From positions 1 to 11,496 of the forward strand of contig JAWOHM010000029.1 in the NCBI GenBank assembly GCA_046485165.1: DNA of 11,496 nt, given 5' to 3'. Below the pieces are notes generated by a model that was not told where the DNA came from, searched no databases, and saw nothing but the letters and a program-made list of their open reading frames with translations. The DNA comes from Thermoplasmata archaeon. GTDB taxonomy: Archaea; Thermoplasmatota; Thermoplasmata; SG8-5. Below are positions 2,627 through 11,489 of this stretch, in pieces. How positions within the stretch are numbered: position 1 is the first letter of the stretch; every line of letters begins with the position of its first letter. A program made the translations under genes and the position numbers.

Positions 2627-3040
2627 ATGAAAGCAGAACAGTGGGGAAGGAGGCACACGTCCAGCATGTTGACGGATCACATGGTCTTTACCACGAAATT
2701 CAGAGCGAAGGTGCTGGTCGGGAAGATCGCGGAGGACTGCGATGCCACAATCCGAAAAACATGCAAAAACCTGGACATCGAAATACTGCAAATGGCCGTG
2801 GCCGAGGACCATGTGCACCTGTTCGTGCAGCATCCCCCCGAATTAAGTCCCAGCAAGATGGCTGAGAAGGTGAAGAGCAATTCCAGCCGGGAACTCAGGG
2901 CGGCGCACCCAGAGCTGGTGAAATGGTGCAAAACAGGGCTGTGGGCGCCTGGGTGTTTCCATGGCAGTGTGGGGCACGGGTTCGATGTCGTCGAACAGTA
3001 TATCAAAGGCCAGCAAAAATACAGAAGAAACGATAGTTGA
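2627..3040 (+). CDS. tnpA: IS200/IS605-family Y1 (HuH) transposase TnpA (137 aa).
   Basis: Carries the HuH motif HVHLFV, the conserved DHMVFTTKFR block, and the catalytic-Tyr region VVEQYIKGQ near the C-terminus. Length is typical. A TATA-like cttatatacc lies about 25 nt upstream. The stop codon is supplied by AGTTGA of unit B. Confidence 0.9.
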   Translation: MKAEQWGRRHTSSMLTDHMVFTTKFRAKVLVGKIAEDCDATIRKTCKNLDIEILQMAVAEDHVHLFVQHPPELSPSKMAEKVKSNSSRELRAAHPELVKWCKTGLWAPGCFHGSVGHGFDVVEQYIKGQQKYRRNDS

Positions 3041-3261
3041 ATGCGAATGGTTACAAATAATTCCTTAGCATTCGACGATGGCGCGGCAACATTTAATAAC
3101 TAAATCAGCGCCATAAATTCACTTCATTTAGCAAACAAATGGTGAATGCGAATCTAAATCCAAAAAGAAAAGAGCATTCGCCCTGGGTAGTCATTTTAAA
3201 AACAAACATTCCCACTGCGAATGGCCGGTAATCGGCAATTTGCATGCAATGAGATTACCGG
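3035..3261 (+). mobile_element. IS200/IS605-type end unit B. It starts AGTTGAATGC and contains four hairpins: gaatgc/gcattc, atggcgc/gcgccat, gaatgc/gcattc and ccggtaatc/gattaccgg.
   Basis: Collinear with units A and C. It overlaps the last codon and stop of tnpA. Confidence 0.6.
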
Positions 3262-3461
3262 AATTAAGTCCCAGCAAGATGGCTGAGAAGGTGAAGAGCA
3301 ATTCCAGCCGGGAACTCAGGGCGGCGCACCCAGAGCTGGTGAAATGGTGCAAAACAGGGCTGTGGGCGCCTGGGTGTTTCCATGGCAGCGTGGGGCACGG
3401 ATTCGATGTGGTGGAGCAATACATCAAAGGCCAGCAATCATATAAACGATACGGTAGTTGA
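3262..3461 (+). pseudogene. Truncated tnpA covering only the C-terminal ~67 codons. It is fused directly to the terminal hairpin of unit B.
   Basis: The first ~135 nt are identical to tnpA 2838-2972, after which the sequence diverges. The HuH motif and N-terminal half are missing. The start codon of track ORF 3240..3461 lies inside the hairpin. Confidence 0.7.
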
Positions 3462-6052: not shown

Positions 6053-6155
6053 TGGTTGAACCATAAATATCGGGATGGATGGCATTTCCGGGCATTCCCG
6101 CCCAACCTTAATATACTTGATTATTGATATTCATAAAAAAAAATGAGGCGAGGAT

Positions 6156-6503
6156 ATGAGAAAGAACGACATCATGTACTACGTGGGATGGTTCACCCTG
6201 CTGATATTGCTGGGCGTGTGGATGCTGGTTTGGGCCCTTGGAGCGGCGAGGATGGGTGAGGCGTTCCTGCTCTGGCTCATGAGCGCCGGAATATTGCTGA
6301 TAATCATCAGTTTCGTTTCCGGGCCCAGGGGAATCTCGAGCTTCCTGCTCGGCGCCGGGCTGGCGCTGACAGTCTTCACGCTGATATTGCTGGGCATAGC
6401 CAGCAACATCCTGGGCGGGCTCGTGGGCACGGCCGTCGGAATAATTTTAATAGGCATCATTGGATTGGCATTGCTGTTCAGAAACATCAGAGTGGAGGCA
6501 TGA
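6156..6503 (+). CDS. Small integral membrane protein of 115 aa with 3-4 predicted transmembrane helices.
   Basis: Strongly hydrophobic segments. It is the first gene of a tightly packed operon whose stop is followed by the next start after 2 nt. Confidence 0.55.
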   Translation: MRKNDIMYYVGWFTLLILLGVWMLVWALGAARMGEAFLLWLMSAGILLIIISFVSGPRGISSFLLGAGLALTVFTLILLGIASNILGGLVGTAVGIILIGIIGLALLFRNIRVEA

Positions 6504-6505
6504 AA

Positions 6506-7039
6506 ATGACTGACTTGAGGGACAAGGTGGAATCTGACCGCGGCATCATCAAGATGATACAGCTGGTCATACCGGGCTACAGGGGATACAGGATAAAGGA
6601 GGACCTGAGGATAGCGGACAGGCTGCTCAGGGAGGAGCTGGCGAACAGGCTGGGCGTTGCCGAGAAGGGCTTCGAGGGCGCGAGGAAGGCCATTGCGAAG
6701 CGCAATGCCATCGACCTGATAGAGGACATCGGCGAATTGGTCATCAGGACCCACACGGCAATCGACAGGCTGAGGCATGCTGAGCAGGGATACACGGGCA
6801 TATCCCCGGACTACCGCATCAAGGAAGCGGAACTGAACAACATGTACGAGTGGGACCTCAGGCTGCTGAACCTCATCGAAGGGCTGATGAAGATAGCCAA
6901 CAACCTGAAGGACACTGCCAGGACCATGCCGGAACCGGACATCGCCCTGGAGTTGACGAACGCCATCCAGGCCATCGAGGATTACGAGACTATATTCGAC
7001 CAGAGAAGGGAGGCCTTCGCCGGCCTCACGATAGGGTGA
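6506..7039 (+). CDS. Hypothetical alpha-helical / coiled-coil protein of about 177 aa.
   Basis: The start at 6506 is preferred because GGAGG at 6494-6498 gives ideal ribosome-binding-site spacing. The ATG at 6500 in the track is an in-frame alternative. The sequence is rich in Arg/Glu/Leu heptad-like segments. I recognise no family with confidence. Confidence 0.6.
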   Translation: MTDLRDKVESDRGIIKMIQLVIPGYRGYRIKEDLRIADRLLREELANRLGVAEKGFEGARKAIAKRNAIDLIEDIGELVIRTHTAIDRLRHAEQGYTGISPDYRIKEAELNNMYEWDLRLLNLIEGLMKIANNLKDTARTMPEPDIALELTNAIQAIEDYETIFDQRREAFAGLTIG

Positions 7040-7043
7040 TAAC

Positions 7044-8183
7044 ATGGTATTCAGCAGAGGAAGGAGCAAGGACGGGGACGTTGCCAGGAACACATACACC
7101 TGGCCCAATGAGTACAAGGGCGAGAACATAATGTACAGGCTGCCCACGAACATCTATTACAACGACAACATCATCGTCATGGAGGACGAGTTCGCGGTGT
7201 TCCTGAGGGACGGGAAGGCCATGCATGTGTTCGACCAGGCCGGGCGCTACGCGCTCACAACCCAGAACGTGCCGATACTCAGGGAGATATTGCCAAAGCT
7301 CACCGGCGTCAAACAGCTGGGAGAGGTTTACTATATCCAGAGGCGCGAGCTGAGGGGAAAGTTCGGCACACCGGAGCCGCTGACATTCAGGGACGCGGAT
7401 TTCGGCCTAGTCCGATTGAGGGTGTTCGGCCAGTTCTCCTACAAGGTGGTGGAGCCGATGCTGTTCATCACGCAGTTCGTGGGCACCAGGGGCTGGTCCG
7501 GCTCGGACGAGGTCATAGAATGGCTGAGGAGCGAGCTCATCCAGAGCGTCAACGATGTCCTGGGCGAGCTGAAGAGGGACAAGAACATGGCAGTCGTGGA
7601 CATGCCGGCCTATGTCAATGAGATTGAGCAGCTCATCCTGGGCAAGATAGACAACGAGGCGAAGAGGTACGGCCTTGACATAACCAATCTGGCTGGCATC
7701 ACAATCACACCGCCTCCGGAAGTGCAGGCTGCAATCGATCGCAGGGGAGCGATGGGCGCCCTTGGCGTCAATTACATGGAATACCAGACCGGAAAGGCCA
7801 TCGAGGGCGTGGGCGAGGGCGCGGCCAAGGGCGGCGGGAATGCGACCGCCGCAATGGCTGGCCTGGGAGCCGGCGCCGGCATTGGCATCGGCATGGGCGG
7901 AGCCATGGGCCAGGGCATGCAGCAGGGCAGTTCCCAGAAGCAGGTCATGGTGAAATGCCAGGAGTGCGGCGCGCTTGTCGCGGAGGACGCAAAATTCTGC
8001 AAGGAATGCGGCAAATCCATGGTGAAAGCCGGCACCGTTAAATGCCCGAAGTGCGGCGATGCCAATACTCCAGATGCAAAATTCTGCGATGAGTGCGGCG
8101 CGCCAATGAAGGTCAAGTGCCCGAAGTGTGGTAAGGAACAGGCCGGGGCGAAGTTCTGCAATGAGTGCGGAACGCAGTTGTAA
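7044..8183 (+). CDS. SPFH/Band-7-like protein (Band_7_1, YdjI-like). It has a Gly/Met/Ala-rich linker and three C-terminal zinc-ribbon repeats (KCPKCG...AKFCxECG).
   Basis: The N-terminal region resembles B. subtilis YdjI. A low-complexity G/M/A/Q linker is followed by zinc ribbons, as in YdjI. The ribosome-binding site is GGTGA. Confidence 0.65.
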   Translation: MVFSRGRSKDGDVARNTYTWPNEYKGENIMYRLPTNIYYNDNIIVMEDEFAVFLRDGKAMHVFDQAGRYALTTQNVPILREILPKLTGVKQLGEVYYIQRRELRGKFGTPEPLTFRDADFGLVRLRVFGQFSYKVVEPMLFITQFVGTRGWSGSDEVIEWLRSELIQSVNDVLGELKRDKNMAVVDMPAYVNEIEQLILGKIDNEAKRYGLDITNLAGITITPPPEVQAAIDRRGAMGALGVNYMEYQTGKAIEGVGEGAAKGGGNATAAMAGLGAGAGIGIGMGGAMGQGMQQGSSQKQVMVKCQECGALVAEDAKFCKECGKSMVKAGTVKCPKCGDANTPDAKFCDECGAPMKVKCPKCGKEQAGAKFCNECGTQL

Positions 8184-8281: not shown

Positions 8282-9241
8282 TCACAGCTTCAGCTCGTAG
8301 TGGACGTTCTCCTGCTCCACCCTGTAGCCCATGGAAAGGTATAGTGAAAGGGCTTTGCTGTTCTGGGCCTCCATGCCCAGGTACAATATGTCCATGCCCT
8401 GCCCGCGGAGCCATGTCATAGAGTCAGTCAGCAACGCGCGGCCCAGCCCCAGCCGCCTGTGGGGTTTCTTCACGCCGAGGATGTTGGTCCATCCCGCCTT
8501 CTTGTTGTTCTGCTCGTTGTATCTCAATTCGATCGCGTAAAAACAGACGCCCGCAATCTCCCCGCCCTTGGTGGTTGTGGTGAGCCAGTATATGCCATCC
8601 TTCGCTTTGATGGTCTCGTCCCTGACCTTGATGAACCTGTCCTCGGGGATGGCTGAGAAATTCCAATGGTCCTGAAAGGAATCATTGAATGCCCTGATGA
8701 ACTCCTTCAATTCATCGTCAGAGCATTCCAGCATGTTCTTTCTGGATAGGGAGTATCCATCAGGCAACGCCGGGGTTGGGCTGGAAAGGGGCTTGTCGCA
8801 TATCATCAGGTAGCCATGCCTTATGTCCTTCATTCCCTGCCTGATTGCGAAATCGTTTCTCCAGCCGGATGGCTCGGGTGCCCAATACCTGAGGGATTCG
8901 ATGCCTCTGGCTCTGAGATATTCTGCGGTTAGATTGAAAATGTGCTCCTCGATGCCCTTGCCCCTCAATTCCGGAACAATGAACAAACTCACCTGCGCAT
9001 CCTTGATGCCGCTCTCGAATCTGGATTTTGATATCATGGAACCACCGAAGGCCACCGGGGTGTCACCGTCAAACCCAATCAGGTAGCCGGCAGGGTCGAA
9101 GTCCTTCTCCCCGAACAGCCAGGTGCGCATGTTCTCCACTGTATCCTCAACGTGGTGCCTCAGTTCTCTTGTGCTGCGATTGATGACATCTATCATGGCC
9201 TCCGCATCGGCCTCGGTCGGATGGCGGTACTCAATGTCCAT
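8282..9241 (-). CDS. GNAT-family N-acetyltransferase with two tandem acetyltransferase domains.
   Basis: Duplicated acetyl-CoA-binding-like motifs (e.g. RGKGIEEHIF... and RRLGLGRALL). The start at 9241 (MDIEYRHPTEADAEAM) is preferred, because the in-frame upstream extension to 9340 runs through the repeat-rich intergenic region. Confidence 0.8.
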   Translation of the reverse strand: MDIEYRHPTEADAEAMIDVINRSTRELRHHVEDTVENMRTWLFGEKDFDPAGYLIGFDGDTPVAFGGSMISKSRFESGIKDAQVSLFIVPELRGKGIEEHIFNLTAEYLRARGIESLRYWAPEPSGWRNDFAIRQGMKDIRHGYLMICDKPLSSPTPALPDGYSLSRKNMLECSDDELKEFIRAFNDSFQDHWNFSAIPEDRFIKVRDETIKAKDGIYWLTTTTKGGEIAGVCFYAIELRYNEQNNKKAGWTNILGVKKPHRRLGLGRALLTDSMTWLRGQGMDILYLGMEAQNSKALSLYLSMGYRVEQENVHYELKL

Positions 9242-9281
9242 GAGACCGGGGTATTCTCTCCGGAATAAAATAATTGCCGGA

Positions 9282-9420
9282 GGATTGGCGATTTTAGATT
9301 TAGGGATTTTAGATTTTAGATATAACGAGCTGGCCGTCAATTACGGCCAGCTAATCTAACCACTTGGCAGGCGATTTCCTGGCACAAATCTACAATCTAA
9401 AATCGAAAATCTACAATAGC
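9282..9420. promoter_or_regulatory. Repeat-rich intergenic region containing arrays of GATTTTAGAT, a perfect hairpin agctggccg-tcaatta-cggccagct, and inverse copies ATCTAAAATC / AAATCTACAAT.
   Basis: Read directly in the sequence. It lies between the htpX stop and the GNAT start on the minus strand. On the minus strand the T-rich tagattt tracts could act as an archaeal terminator, and the stretch could also hold GNAT promoter elements. Confidence 0.4.
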
Positions 9421-9443: not shown

Positions 9444-10481
9444 CTAAATCCGCTTGTAAATATCCCCGCCAATCCCGCCGTGCTTCAGGTCCTTCTCCAT
9501 CTCCTTGAGGTTCTGGATGCGCTTGAATGTGGACGGGTGGGTGGACGCGACCTCGCTGTGGCGCCGGCGCTTTGCCTCCTCCTCCATGGCCAGCATCAGC
9601 TCCTTCTCGTCCAGGACGCCGTCGCCGTCCAGGTCGTACCTGTTCTTGTTCTGCATGATGGACCCTATCTCCTTCTTGGCGGACAGGGGATCGCCTATGT
9701 AGAACGAACGCGCTGCGCCGGGCTGGTCCTTGGATATTGAAAGGCCATAAGTAATCTTGGCCAGGGCGGAGCTGAGGCTGTGCGGGTCGTTGGTCGCCAC
9801 TGCGGAGAAAGCGTCGGCGTAAAACTCCCTCTGCCTGGAGAGTCTGAGTATCATGAGCTGGGAGATGACATAAACGGCAAAGCCGATGAGGGCTGCGACG
9901 ATTATCGCCCCGCCTGAGTTCCGGCTGCGGCCCCCGCCGCTCCACAGCACCGAGCGGGCCAGCATGTACGCCAGAATGGGGACGACGCTGACCACGGTCA
10001 TGATGGCCATGTCGTTGTGCTTTATGTGGCCTATCTCATGCGCCAGAACGCCCTTTATCTCGTCCTTGTTGAGCTGCTCCAGCAGGCCGACGTGCACTGC
10101 CAGTGTCGCCGAGTTCTTGGAACGGCCGAACACGAATGCGTTGGGGCTTCTGTCCGGGGAGACGGCCAGCGCAGGCATCGGGACCCCGGACTTCTGGCAC
10201 AGCTCCCTCACGGCGTTCTCGAGAAACGGATTTTCTCCGGGCTTCAGGTATCTGAGCCGGGAGGACCAGCGGATTATGCCGGGGGAGATGGCCCACTGGA
10301 ACAGGACGAAGAGGGTGGTGATGAATATTATCACGATTATCTGGAACCAGAAAGGGATGAAGGCTCCGGCCATGTACCACTGGATGAGCGTGCTTATGAC
10401 AATCAGAAGGGCGAAAAGCATGCCGAATATGAGAATCAGTGTCAGAGCCATGCTCCGCTTCAGCGCCCCAAGCGATGCCAT
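9444..10481 (-). CDS. htpX: HtpX-family M48 zinc metalloprotease (HEIGH motif, multi-transmembrane) with a C-terminal EF-hand-like calcium-binding loop (DLDGDGVLDEKE).
   Basis: The motif AHEIGHIKHND, N-terminal transmembrane helices, and a canonical 12-residue EF-hand loop near the C-terminus. Confidence 0.85.
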   Translation of the reverse strand: MASLGALKRSMALTLILIFGMLFALLIVISTLIQWYMAGAFIPFWFQIIVIIFITTLFVLFQWAISPGIIRWSSRLRYLKPGENPFLENAVRELCQKSGVPMPALAVSPDRSPNAFVFGRSKNSATLAVHVGLLEQLNKDEIKGVLAHEIGHIKHNDMAIMTVVSVVPILAYMLARSVLWSGGGRSRNSGGAIIVAALIGFAVYVISQLMILRLSRQREFYADAFSAVATNDPHSLSSALAKITYGLSISKDQPGAARSFYIGDPLSAKKEIGSIMQNKNRYDLDGDGVLDEKELMLAMEEEAKRRRHSEVASTHPSTFKRIQNLKEMEKDLKHGGIGGDIYKRI

Positions 10482-10524: not shown

Positions 10525-11235
10525 ATGCCTGAAATAGTCCAGAAACTGAGCTGCCCTGATTGCGGGGGACCGCTGAAGGTCCAGGCAGGCGACGCCATAG
10601 TGACCTGTGGTTACTGCGGTTCGGATGTCAACCTCGCGGTCGGCTCGAAATATTTTCTCAAGCACAGCATCATCCCGCCGAAGATAGGCCTCGATTCCAT
10701 TGACGCTGTGATTAAGGCTTGGATGGGCAGCGGCTTCCTCAAGCCGGATGACCTGGCCAGGAAGCACAGGGTGGTGAGCAAGGAACTGCAGATCCTGCCG
10801 CTGTTCATAGTCAATGCGATTGCCAAATCCGAGTACCAGGGAGAGCTGACCAGGACTGGATACCCGACGCCAAAAAGCGGGACCCTGGAAAAAGAGTATT
10901 ACTGGAAGGTGCTGGGCAGGCGGGCTTCCGCATTCCCCACCAGGGCATACGAGGTGCCGCTGGCCGCCAAGGCGGATTTCGAGATATCCAGGCTGGTCCC
11001 GGGGGCGAATTTCCTCAATTCCGAGATGGACGAGGCCGAGGCCATAAACATCGCCAAGCAGGAGATGGAAGCACATCACAGGTTCCTGCTGGAGAAGGAG
11101 CTGGATGTCATCTCCAGCCTGAGCACTTCATATGATGTCAGGAACACGGAGTTCCTTCACGTTCCGGCATGGTTCATCACCTACCAGTACAACGGGAAGA
11201 TGTACAATCTGATTCTGGACGGCGCGACTGGCTAG
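10525..11235 (+). CDS. Hypothetical protein of 236 aa with an N-terminal zinc ribbon (CPDCGG...CGYCGS). No family recognised.
   Basis: Long ORF with a CxxC...CxxC N-terminus. The start at 10525 is chosen because the upstream in-frame ATG at 10480 overlaps the htpX start codon on the other strand. The track's start at 9886 is antisense to htpX and is rejected. Confidence 0.55.
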   Translation: MPEIVQKLSCPDCGGPLKVQAGDAIVTCGYCGSDVNLAVGSKYFLKHSIIPPKIGLDSIDAVIKAWMGSGFLKPDDLARKHRVVSKELQILPLFIVNAIAKSEYQGELTRTGYPTPKSGTLEKEYYWKVLGRRASAFPTRAYEVPLAAKADFEISRLVPGANFLNSEMDEAEAINIAKQEMEAHHRFLLEKELDVISSLSTSYDVRNTEFLHVPAWFITYQYNGKMYNLILDGATG

Positions 11236-11300
11236 GATGTGAAGGCCGACATTCCCCAGAAGGGCAAGGGCCTGCTGGGCGGGCTTTTCGGAGGCTGAAG

Positions 11301-11489
11301 ATGTCAGAGAAACTGTTGCAGCACAAGCATTGCAGGAACTGCGAGAGGGCCATCAACCTGAAGGACGATTACTGCGGCCCGGAATGCCAGGCCCAGCACC
11401 AGACGATGCTGAGAAGGAAGCGCAACCAGTTGTACATACTCATGGCCATAGCCATGGGCCTGATGCTGGTGACGCTGATGATAGGTTGA
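11301..11489 (+). CDS. Small zinc-ribbon membrane protein of 62 aa with the HKHC..C...CGPEC motif, a basic stretch and a C-terminal transmembrane helix. It looks DUF2116-like.
   Basis: GGAGG lies 8 nt upstream of the ATG. The CxxC/CxxxC pair is followed by a hydrophobic helix. The track's start at 11169 overlaps the previous gene out of frame and is rejected. Confidence 0.5.
   Translation: MSEKLLQHKHCRNCERAINLKDDYCGPECQAQHQTMLRRKRNQLYILMAIAMGLMLVTLMIG

What the first reader, a model, noticed from the sequence alone, without database searches (positions are those of the whole stretch)
6156..8183. Membrane-protein / helical-protein / SPFH(YdjI-like)-zinc-ribbon operon, a PspA-less envelope-stress-like module
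Three tightly coupled genes (gaps of 2 and 4 nt) encode a small polytopic membrane protein, an uncharacterised coiled-coil protein, and a Band_7_1/YdjI-like SPFH protein with a Gly/Met-rich linker and three zinc-ribbon repeats. In Bacillus, YdjI is encoded in the pspA-ydjGHI membrane-stress operon. Here the SPFH protein is paired instead with an unassigned helical protein that could stand in for PspA/ESCRT-III. This unit directly follows the RPA genes on the same strand.
Basis: partly seen in the sequence, partly recalled or inferred. Interest (0 to 1): 0.55.

Follow-up and report, generated by a model that had tools for sequence, protein, structure and literature searches.

The report
Archaeal SPFH operon with unnamed partner
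Three tightly packed archaeal genes encode a small membrane protein, a helical protein from a large unnamed family, and a soluble SPFH "scaffold" protein; the helical protein almost always sits beside this type of SPFH protein in archaea and bacteria, and it is not a stand-in for the membrane-repair protein PspA.

Summary
Three same-strand genes lie at 6156-8183: A (4-TM, 115 aa), B (all-helical, 177/179 aa) and C (Band_7_1 SPFH, Gly/Ala/Met linker, three zinc ribbons).

The unit is conserved:
- B is followed by C in 78 of 80 archaeal loci. The two exceptions are contig ends.
- All 8 informative distant or bacterial loci also link B with a Band_7_1 gene.
- A-like 4-TM genes precede B in 56 of 80 loci.
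- A fourth family, Zn-ribbon proteins (window copy at 10525-11235), recurs in 50 of 87 loci.
- A conserved BRE/TATA-like box at 6095-6116 gives the trio its own promoter. The RPA adjacency is not conserved.

The idea that B replaces PspA/ESCRT-III is not supported:
- None of 117 B-family members hit PspA or Snf7 models.
- Profile-profile probability against PspA is 0.35%.
- The predicted fold is a compact, generic helical bundle.
- In two bacterial loci, B sits beside a genuine PspA and the SPFH gene.

B belongs to a large family (1,419 clusters at 50% identity) with no Pfam model.

Best reading: a YdjI/SamI-like membrane-surveillance module without PspA nearby, in which B is a dedicated SPFH partner. 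That role is inferred, not shown. I rate this a new variant of a known kind, of moderate interest.

The parts
6095..6116 (+). Putative archaeal promoter: a BRE-like element plus TATA box (TTCCCGCCCAACC TTAATATA C; TATA at 6108-6115), about 44 nt upstream of the gene A start codon.
   Evidence: The motif is conserved in 6 relatives whose sequence further upstream is unrelated (alignment A6). It lies in an AT-rich 103-nt intergenic region after the RPA-associated gene. Promoter function is inferred, not shown.
6156..6503 (+). Gene A: a 115-aa membrane protein with four TM helices, probably N-in/C-in, with almost no soluble loops. Its short conserved N-terminal cytoplasmic peptide is charged and aromatic.
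   Evidence: ORF. (four hydrophobic segments; maximum 19-aa Kyte-Doolittle (KD) hydropathy mean 2.69). A comparable 4-TM ORF of about 103-126 aa ends within -26 to +27 nt of B in 56 of 80 loci. No Pfam or NCBIfam hit. Across 25 family members there are only weak NfeD_membrane (3 members, best E=0.008) and LiaF-TM hits.
6500..7039 (+). Gene B: a soluble all-helical protein of 179 aa (177 aa from the ATG at 6506). It belongs to a large family with no Pfam model. Conserved motifs are IPG[FY]xGYxxxE(D)xRxADxLLR (aa 24-44; nt 6563-6631 span aa 22-44) and HAEQGY[TSA]G...L..xY..D (aa 92-120, nt 6773-6859).
   Evidence: family size and invariant residues P25, Y30, D40, D119, R169. (AF2 pLDDT 84.3, pTM 0.80; helices 6-23, 36-67, 71-92, 109-139, 145-173). 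(NCBIfam NF047596 LIMLP_15305_fam, E=3e-10, full length, but 40 bits against a cutoff of 210). (no TM segment).
7044..8183 (+). Gene C: a soluble 379-aa YdjI-like SPFH protein. SPFH/Band_7_1 domain at aa 35-238 (nt 7146-7757). Gly/Ala/Met-rich low-complexity linker at aa 239-300 (nt 7758-7943). Three C4 zinc ribbons at nt 7956-8009, 8043-8096 and 8118-8168.
   Evidence: PF13421 E=7.7e-38; Zn_Ribbon_1, Zn_ribbon_3 and DZR hits. (Cys motifs and linker composition). (no TM segment; maximum KD mean 1.28). C lies immediately downstream of B in 78 of 80 archaeal loci.
10525..11235 (+). A more distant member of the conserved neighbourhood: a 236-aa protein with an N-terminal Zn ribbon (CPDCG...CGYCG) and an alpha+beta domain. 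It is divergently paired with the HtpX gene. The ORF ends at an in-frame TAG. The orthologue-like tail continues in the same frame and ends at the next stop, about nt 11296-11298.
9444..10481 (-). HtpX-like M48 membrane metalloprotease, convergent with the trio and divergent from the Zn-ribbon protein gene. It is a lineage-restricted neighbour.
   Evidence: Peptidase_M48 E=2e-38; HtpX PRK02391 E=6e-60. It clusters in 14 of 87 loci, all Thermoplasmatota. Any functional link is only a thematic inference.

Best explanation
The region is a self-contained archaeal operon with its own BRE/TATA-like promoter. It encodes a membrane-associated SPFH scaffold complex of the YdjI/SamI type.

Proposed mechanism (inferred):
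- The 4-TM protein A, probably helped by the Zn-ribbon/alpha+beta proteins encoded nearby, sits in the membrane. It serves as the anchor or sensor.
- C is a soluble SPFH protein. It has no membrane segment of its own and must be recruited, as B. subtilis YdjI is by YdjG/YdjH.
- B is a compact helical-bundle protein whose two most conserved loops carry the invariant residues. It acts as a dedicated adaptor or assembly partner that binds the SPFH protein and couples it to the membrane component.
- The assembled complex would organise or monitor the membrane under stress. It may cooperate with the neighbouring HtpX quality-control protease.

PspA is not part of the local archaeal module. In some bacteria a PspA gene is inserted between B and the SPFH gene. 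This suggests that the B-SPFH pair is the core and PspA an optional client.

Shown: gene content, domain identities, conservation of gene order across phyla, and absence of PspA-like features in B.
Inferred: the physical B-C and A-B/C interactions, the membrane-stress function, and any role for HtpX.
For: C is Band_7_1 with a low-complexity linker and Zn ribbons. This matches the published YdjI description: soluble, low-complexity region, C-terminal zinc finger, recruited by the membrane proteins YdjG/YdjH (PMC8581546; bioRxiv 10.64898/2026.02.06.704340).

B is followed by C in 78 of 80 archaeal loci (Thermoplasmatota, DHVE2, Methanomicrobiales, Methanoperedens, Halobacteriota). The two exceptions are contig ends.

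All 8 informative distant loci link B with Band_7_1: L081, L082, L083, L088, L090 and L091 directly, and L084 and L085 with PspA in between.

Unbiased ORF clustering finds B in 87 of 87 loci, SPFH in 83, Zn-ribbon proteins in 50, the 4-TM protein in 53 and HtpX in 14.

A 4-TM ORF abuts B in 56 of 80 loci.

Fusions seen: Zn-ribbon + B (P0143, P0148, P0154) and B + DUF4178 (P0223). DUF4178 is a domain of PspA-linked membrane operons (PMC11237479).

The promoter motif is conserved. B and C lack TM segments, whereas A is almost entirely TM.
Against: There is no experimental or structural evidence for any interaction. Complex prediction could not be run.

B gives no informative fold or family match, so its adaptor role rests on gene order alone.

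A is missing or not detected in about 30% of loci (for example Methanoperedens and some Thermoplasmatota). It is therefore not obligatory, or it is replaced by other membrane proteins.

The module lacks the TPM-domain YdjH equivalent and PspA, so extrapolation from B. subtilis is indirect.

The HtpX linkage is confined to one lineage and may be plain synteny.

The rest of the genome is unknown, because the contig is 11.5 kb. A PspA encoded elsewhere cannot be excluded.
Confidence: 0.6

Rival explanations
1. One reading: B is a functional or structural substitute for PspA/ESCRT-III. On this view it polymerises on the membrane, is recruited by the SPFH protein, and makes this a PspA-less repair system.
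Against: - None of 30+87 family members hit PspA_IM30 or Snf7.
- hhalign of B against PspA gives 0.35% probability.
- The model is a compact bundle (pTM 0.80) with 18-32-residue helices, not a long hairpin.
- Foldseek gives no hit at E<=0.001, and its top hits are FAT-like bundles, talin and chemoreceptor four-helix bundles.
- B co-occurs with a bona fide PspA in the same gene string in L084 and L085. A substitute would not be expected to do so.
Confidence: 0.05
2. B is a regulator of the membrane proteins or of a protease, such as an inhibitor or specificity factor for HtpX, or an anti-sigma-like signalling protein. The SPFH protein would modulate it, by analogy with HflK/C-FtsH and with SamI restraining SamG/SamH signalling.
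For: HtpX lies next to the module in several Thermoplasmatota loci. SPFH-protease partnerships are well established (general knowledge). The 2026 preprint reports that loss of SamI gives constitutive SamG/SamH stress signalling. PspA-associated 'metallopeptidase + PspAB' dyads have been described (PMC11237479).
Against: HtpX clusters in only 14 of 87 loci and lies on the opposite strand. B-SPFH pairs in Methanomicrobiales, DHVE2 and bacteria have no adjacent protease. B has no recognisable DNA-binding or protease-interaction domain.
Confidence: 0.2
3. The module is an anti-phage or mobile-element defence or abortive-infection system built around a membrane protein and Zn-ribbon proteins.
For: An IS200-type transposase and a partial copy lie 3 kb upstream. 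The module consists of small, tightly linked genes of unknown function.
Against: There are no PADLOC hits for A, B or C. The module is in a stable, vertically conserved position across whole orders, which is not the patchy distribution of defence islands. Its neighbours are housekeeping genes.
Confidence: 0.05

Closest known systems
B. subtilis pspA-ydjGHI (samGHI) operon; YdjI/SamI SPFH protein
   Same: C has the same Pfam family (Band_7_1) and the same layout: a soluble SPFH domain, a low-complexity linker and C-terminal zinc ribbon(s). It is encoded together with small membrane proteins. A family of Zn-ribbon proteins, as in YdjG, sits in the conserved neighbourhood.
   Different: There is no pspA in the operon or within 6 kb. 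There is no TPM-domain YdjH equivalent. The membrane partner is a minimal 4-TM protein. C has three ribbons instead of one. The module contains B, a helical-bundle family absent from the four-gene B. subtilis operon as published. The window's Zn-ribbon protein has one ribbon and no TM segment, whereas YdjG has two ribbons, an NTF2/YpeB-like domain and a TM segment (PMC11237479).
PspA / Vipp1 / ESCRT-III (PF04012, PF03357)
   Same: Both are all-alpha proteins, and both are encoded next to YdjI-type SPFH genes in some genomes.
   Different: There is no sequence or profile similarity. The predicted fold is a compact bundle rather than a long hairpin. B co-occurs with genuine PspA in the same bacterial loci.
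NCBIfam NF047596 'LIMLP_15305 family protein' (Leptospira hypothetical protein)
   Same: It is the only curated model that aligns with B end to end (aa 9-173 against model positions 10-173 of 175, E=3e-10). It is probably a sister branch of the same superfamily.
   Different: The score of 40 bits is far below the family cutoff of 210 bits. The family has no known function. The only paper found merely lists the locus tag (PMC7567364).
Stomatin-NfeD and HflK/C-FtsH type SPFH operons
   Same: An SPFH gene is coupled to a small multi-TM partner gene, with a membrane protease (HtpX) nearby in some genomes. A few A-family members weakly hit the NfeD membrane domain.
   Different: C has no TM anchor and no long coiled-coil region. 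The NfeD hits are weak (3 of 25 members, E>=0.008) and may reflect hydrophobic composition. There is no NfeD OB-fold or ClpP-like protease domain.

Membership tests
Band_7_1 / YdjI-like soluble SPFH proteins (protein C) | Match to Pfam PF13421 above the gathering threshold | tested here: met
   130.7 bits against a cutoff of 24, E=7.7e-38, aa 35-238 matching profile positions 9-210 of 211.
Band_7_1 / YdjI-like soluble SPFH proteins (protein C) | No transmembrane anchor (soluble; requires a membrane partner) | tested here: met
   The maximum 19-aa Kyte-Doolittle mean is 1.28, in the Gly/Ala/Met linker, below the 1.6 threshold used. This is a simple hydropathy scan, not a dedicated TM predictor.
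Band_7_1 / YdjI-like soluble SPFH proteins (protein C) | Low-complexity region followed by C-terminal zinc finger/ribbon (PMC8581546) | tested here: met
   Linker at aa 239-300 (19 G, 11 A, 5 M). Three CxxC...CxxC ribbons at aa 305-375. There are three ribbons rather than one.
pspA-ydjGHI (samGHI) operon | pspA in the same operon | tested here: not met
   No protein in the window gives a PspA_IM30 hit. No PspA homologue lies within +-6 kb in 80 related archaeal loci (phmmer with two PspA queries).
pspA-ydjGHI (samGHI) operon | YdjH-type TPM-domain membrane protein | tested here: not met
   None of the window proteins scanned gives a TPM_phosphatase hit. A is a bare 4-TM protein.
pspA-ydjGHI (samGHI) operon | YdjG-type protein: Zn ribbon(s), YpeB/NTF2-like domain and a TM segment | tested here: inconclusive
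pspA-ydjGHI (samGHI) operon | The SPFH protein recruits PspA to the membrane | not testable with these tools
   This needs localisation or interaction experiments.
PspA/Vipp1/ESCRT-III (protein B) | Match to PspA_IM30 or Snf7 profiles | tested here: not met
   B gives no Pfam hit at E<=0.1. PspA_IM30 and Snf7 are absent from the listed Pfam matches of the 30 (A1) and 87 (A4) family members (top 25 families shown per scan).
PspA/Vipp1/ESCRT-III (protein B) | Profile-profile similarity to PspA | tested here: not met
   hhalign of A4 (87 sequences) against A3 (2 PspA sequences) gives probability 0.35% with 1 aligned column. The PspA profile is shallow, built from only two sequences.
PspA/Vipp1/ESCRT-III (protein B) | ESCRT-III fold: a long alpha1-alpha2 hairpin with further helices packed or extended | tested here: not met
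PspA/Vipp1/ESCRT-III (protein B) | If B were a substitute, it should be mutually exclusive with PspA in the module | tested here: not met
   L084 reads B-DUF4178, then PspA, then SPFH. L085 reads B, then PspA, then SPFH.
PspAA (PspA-associated domain A) | Three helices plus a four-stranded beta-sheet (PMC11237479) | tested here: not met
   The B model has five helices and no strands. No PspAA sequence was available for direct comparison.
PspAB (PspA-associated domain B) | Homology to Tfu_1009 (AAZ55047.1), encoded after a membrane metallopeptidase | not tested
   The reference sequence could not be obtained and the paper does not describe the fold. Neither B nor the Zn-ribbon protein follows the metallopeptidase on the same strand here.
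NCBIfam NF047596 LIMLP_15305 family (protein B) | Score above the curated cutoff of 210 bits | tested here: not met
   40.2 bits, E=3.1e-10, although the alignment is full length. B is related to this family but is not a member.
NfeD membrane domain / LiaF-TM (protein A) | Significant Pfam match | tested here: inconclusive
   The window protein has no hit. Among 25 family members, 3 hit NfeD_membrane (best E=0.0083) and 2 hit LiaF-TM (E=0.12).

The most novel reading that the evidence does not exclude
The B family would be a previously unrecognised, near-obligate core subunit of soluble YdjI-type SPFH complexes throughout bacteria and archaea. On this reading the ancestral unit is B + SPFH, with variable membrane anchors (a 4-TM protein, or Zn-ribbon/PepSY-like proteins). 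This unit works as a PspA-independent membrane-surveillance machine. PspA is a later, optional client inserted between the two genes in some bacteria. That would change how the B. subtilis Sam/Ydj system and the SPFH-ESCRT-III connection are interpreted.
Probability: 0.4. Interest if true: 0.65.

Novelty: new variant of a known kind. Interest (0 to 1): 0.5.

Why it matters
SPFH proteins are universal membrane organisers. Their soluble Band_7_1 branch has been studied in only one organism, where it links membrane sensors to the ESCRT-III homologue PspA.

This window, and about 90 related loci, show that this branch travels with a large helical-protein family. The family has 1,419 clusters at 50% identity and no Pfam model. 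The papers I searched and read on Psp and ESCRT gene neighbourhoods do not describe it.

Defining this partner gives a concrete handle on how anchor-less SPFH proteins are assembled at membranes. The conserved motifs are IPGFxGY...RxAD..LR and HAEQGYxG. It also shows that the module exists in many archaea with no PspA gene within 6 kb.

The function remains an inference from gene order.

Tried and rejected
- PADLOC scan of A, B and C: no hits, so the defence reading was dropped.
- Pfam scans of 30 and then 87 B-family members: only scattered coiled-coil noise. An early hint of LemA, TelA and TorS-sensor similarity did not recur in the broader set and was dropped.
- PDB sequence-profile searches with A1 and A4: only designed bundles and noise.
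- The afdb50 fold library was unavailable.
- Literature on LIMLP_15305: only a locus-tag listing.
- The PspAB identity of B or of the Zn-ribbon protein could not be tested, because no reference sequence was available.
- RPA linkage: no RPA match in any of the 80 related loci, so it was rejected as part of the unit.
- P0240 (N-terminal B joined to C-terminal Band_7_1) looks like a deletion or assembly join, not a clean domain fusion. It was not used as Rosetta-stone evidence.
Full report
**Observation.** The window is an 11,496-bp contig of a Thermoplasmata MAG. Protein P0001, identical to gene B, is recorded on an 11,496-bp NCBI contig. Three + strand ORFs occupy 6156-6503 (A, 115 aa), 6500-7039 (B, 179 aa) and 7044-8183 (C, 379 aa). 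A and B overlap by ATGA. If B starts at the second ATG (6506), as in the NCBI annotation (177 aa), there is a 2-nt gap. B and C are 4 nt apart.

- A is almost entirely four hydrophobic helices.
- C hits Band_7_1 (PF13421) at E=7.7e-38 over aa 35-238. It continues with a Gly/Ala/Met-rich linker and three CxxC-x9-10-CxxC ribbons.
- B has no Pfam hit and no TM segment.
- The upstream genes are RPA (PRK07218-like) and an RPA-associated protein.

**Conservation.** B has more than 200 close homologues, all without Pfam domains. A pattern scan of one genome per GTDB species found 179 loci, of which 80 were fetched. They come from Methanomassiliicoccales and other Thermoplasmatota, the DHVE2 group, Methanocorpusculum, Methanomicrobium and other Methanomicrobiales, Methanoperedens and Halobacteriota.

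- tblastn shows the SPFH gene directly downstream of B in 78 of 80 loci. The two exceptions are contigs that end just after B.
- A 4-TM ORF of about 103-126 aa abuts B upstream in 56 of 80 loci.
- No locus has RPA genes upstream.
- A motif, TTCCCGCCCAACCTTAATATAC (6095-6116), is conserved upstream of gene A in relatives whose further upstream sequence is unrelated. It looks like an archaeal BRE/TATA promoter.

The trio is therefore its own unit, and the RPA adjacency is incidental.

**A larger neighbourhood.** Unbiased clustering of all ORFs in 87 loci recovers these families:

| Family | Loci (of 87) |
|---|---|
| B | 87 |
| SPFH (C) | 83 |
| Zn-ribbon proteins (120 ORFs) | 50 |
| 4-TM protein (two clusters) | 53 |
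| HtpX | 14 |

The window's member of the Zn-ribbon family is at 10525-11235, separated from the trio by a GNAT gene and HtpX. In Methanocorpusculum and DHVE2, two or three paralogues sit directly upstream of A. In Methanoperedens and others they follow C.

**The B family.** A profile search of 1.84 billion representatives found 1,419 clusters at E<=1e-3 and 812 at E<=1e-10. A word-indexed profile search found 1,956 proteins, including an Armatimonadetes protein. Across 87 diverse members the invariant residues are P25, Y30, D40, D119 and R169. They lie within two motifs, IPGFxGY..E.RR.AD..LR and A..GYxG.F...L..LY..D.

I looked up eight informative distant loci, and every one links B with a Band_7_1 gene:

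| Locus | Gene order |
|---|---|
| L081 | DUF2207-like, 3TM+Zn ribbon, B, SPFH-SHOCT |
| L082 | B, SPFH |
| L083 | B, SPFH, then two Zn-ribbon proteins, one with 2 TM |
| L088 | B, SPFH |
| L090 | B, SPFH (7.6-Mb bacterial chromosome) |
| L091 | B, SPFH (Armatimonadetes) |
| L084 | B-DUF4178 fusion, PspA, SPFH |
| L085 | 2TM+Zn ribbon, DUF2207, B, PspA, SPFH |

Fusions of a Zn ribbon to B also occur (P0143, P0148, P0154).

**Is B a PspA substitute?** No.

- There are no PspA_IM30 or Snf7 hits in B or in 116 relatives.
- hhalign of the family against PspA gives 0.35% probability.
- The AF2 model (pLDDT 84, pTM 0.80) is a compact five-helix bundle.
- Foldseek finds nothing at E<=0.001.
- B co-occurs with genuine PspA in L084 and L085.
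- PspAA is described as an alpha/beta domain, so B is not PspAA.
- PspAB could not be tested.
- The only curated relative is NCBIfam NF047596 (LIMLP_15305 family). It aligns full length but scores far below its cutoff, and it has no functional literature.

**Mechanism.** Published work shows that B. subtilis YdjI/SamI is a soluble SPFH protein. It is recruited by the membrane proteins YdjG/YdjH and in turn stabilises PspA foci. Its loss deregulates SamG/SamH signalling (PMC8581546; 2026 preprint).

By analogy, I propose that A, with or without the Zn-ribbon proteins, is the membrane anchor or sensor. C is the recruited SPFH scaffold. B is a dedicated adaptor or assembly partner of C. No PspA is encoded locally in the archaeal loci. 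These steps are inferred from gene order and domain logic. None is shown.

The HtpX neighbour fits the theme of membrane quality control, but it is restricted to one lineage. Defence-system and pure-chance explanations are disfavoured.

**Comparison and novelty.** C is a new member of a known family. The module is a variant of the YdjI/Sam type. It lacks pspA and the TPM protein, and it contains a conserved, uncharacterised partner family. The Psp and ESCRT neighbourhood papers I searched and read (PMC11237479, 10.1101/2021.02.15.431232, PMC10936438) do not describe such a family in the passages retrieved, but I did not read them exhaustively. I rate the finding a new variant of a known kind, with interest 0.5.

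Noticed in passing
window 11233-11298: The Zn-ribbon protein gene (10525-11235) ends at an in-frame TAG. The same frame continues as DVKADIPQKGKGLLGGLFGG up to a TGA, which matches the C-terminal tail of all orthologues (about 257 aa against 236 here). The TAG sits where orthologues have D or E. This could be a nonsense mutation, a sequencing error, or amber read-through. Relatives of Methanomassiliicoccales use pyrrolysine (own knowledge). TAG also ends HtpX and a small ORF in the window, so it is not generally reassigned.
   Followed up: partly
window 2627-3040 and 3240-3461: An IS200-type Y1 transposase gene (Y1_Tnp, E=1.8e-28) is followed about 200 nt later by a partial duplicate of its C-terminal half with a near-identical peptide (PELSPSKMAEKVKSNSSRELRAAHPELVKWCKTGLWAPGCFHGSVGHGFDVVEQYIKGQQ). 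This suggests a tandem or rearranged IS copy just upstream of the RPA genes. It may explain why the RPA-trio adjacency is unique to this contig.
   Followed up: no
window 9444-10481 (-) and 10525-11235 (+); loci L001-L009, L016, L029, L054, L060, L071, L073: The HtpX (M48) gene and the Zn-ribbon protein gene form a divergent pair. The pair stays together in many Thermoplasmatota loci even when its orientation relative to the SPFH gene flips (L060, L071, L073).
   Followed up: partly
window 11301-11489: A small DUF2116 (treble-clef zinc) protein with a C-terminal TM helix follows the Zn-ribbon protein gene. It is co-conserved with that gene in close relatives (L001-L003, L006, L007, L009, L016).
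   Followed up: no
window 8282-9340 (-): A 352-aa protein with two GNAT acetyltransferase domains lies between the SPFH gene and HtpX. It shows weak MshD-like similarity (TIGR03448, E=1.7e-14, below cutoff). It is present in only some relatives (L001-L003, L007), so it looks like an insertion into the conserved neighbourhood.
   Followed up: no
L081 4449-4973; L085 2220-2819: In bacterial B-SPFH loci, small proteins with 2-3 N-terminal TM helices and a C-terminal Zn ribbon (C..CG...G.G.(L/I).C..CGTE(Y/F)FL) sit beside DUF2207-type membrane proteins, just upstream of B. They may be bacterial counterparts of the archaeal 4-TM plus Zn-ribbon anchor set.
   Followed up: no
L032 6573-6895: In one Methanocorpusculum genome (OY781078.1) the SPFH gene downstream of B matches only in three short, shifted pieces. 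It may be a degraded or frameshifted copy.
   Followed up: no
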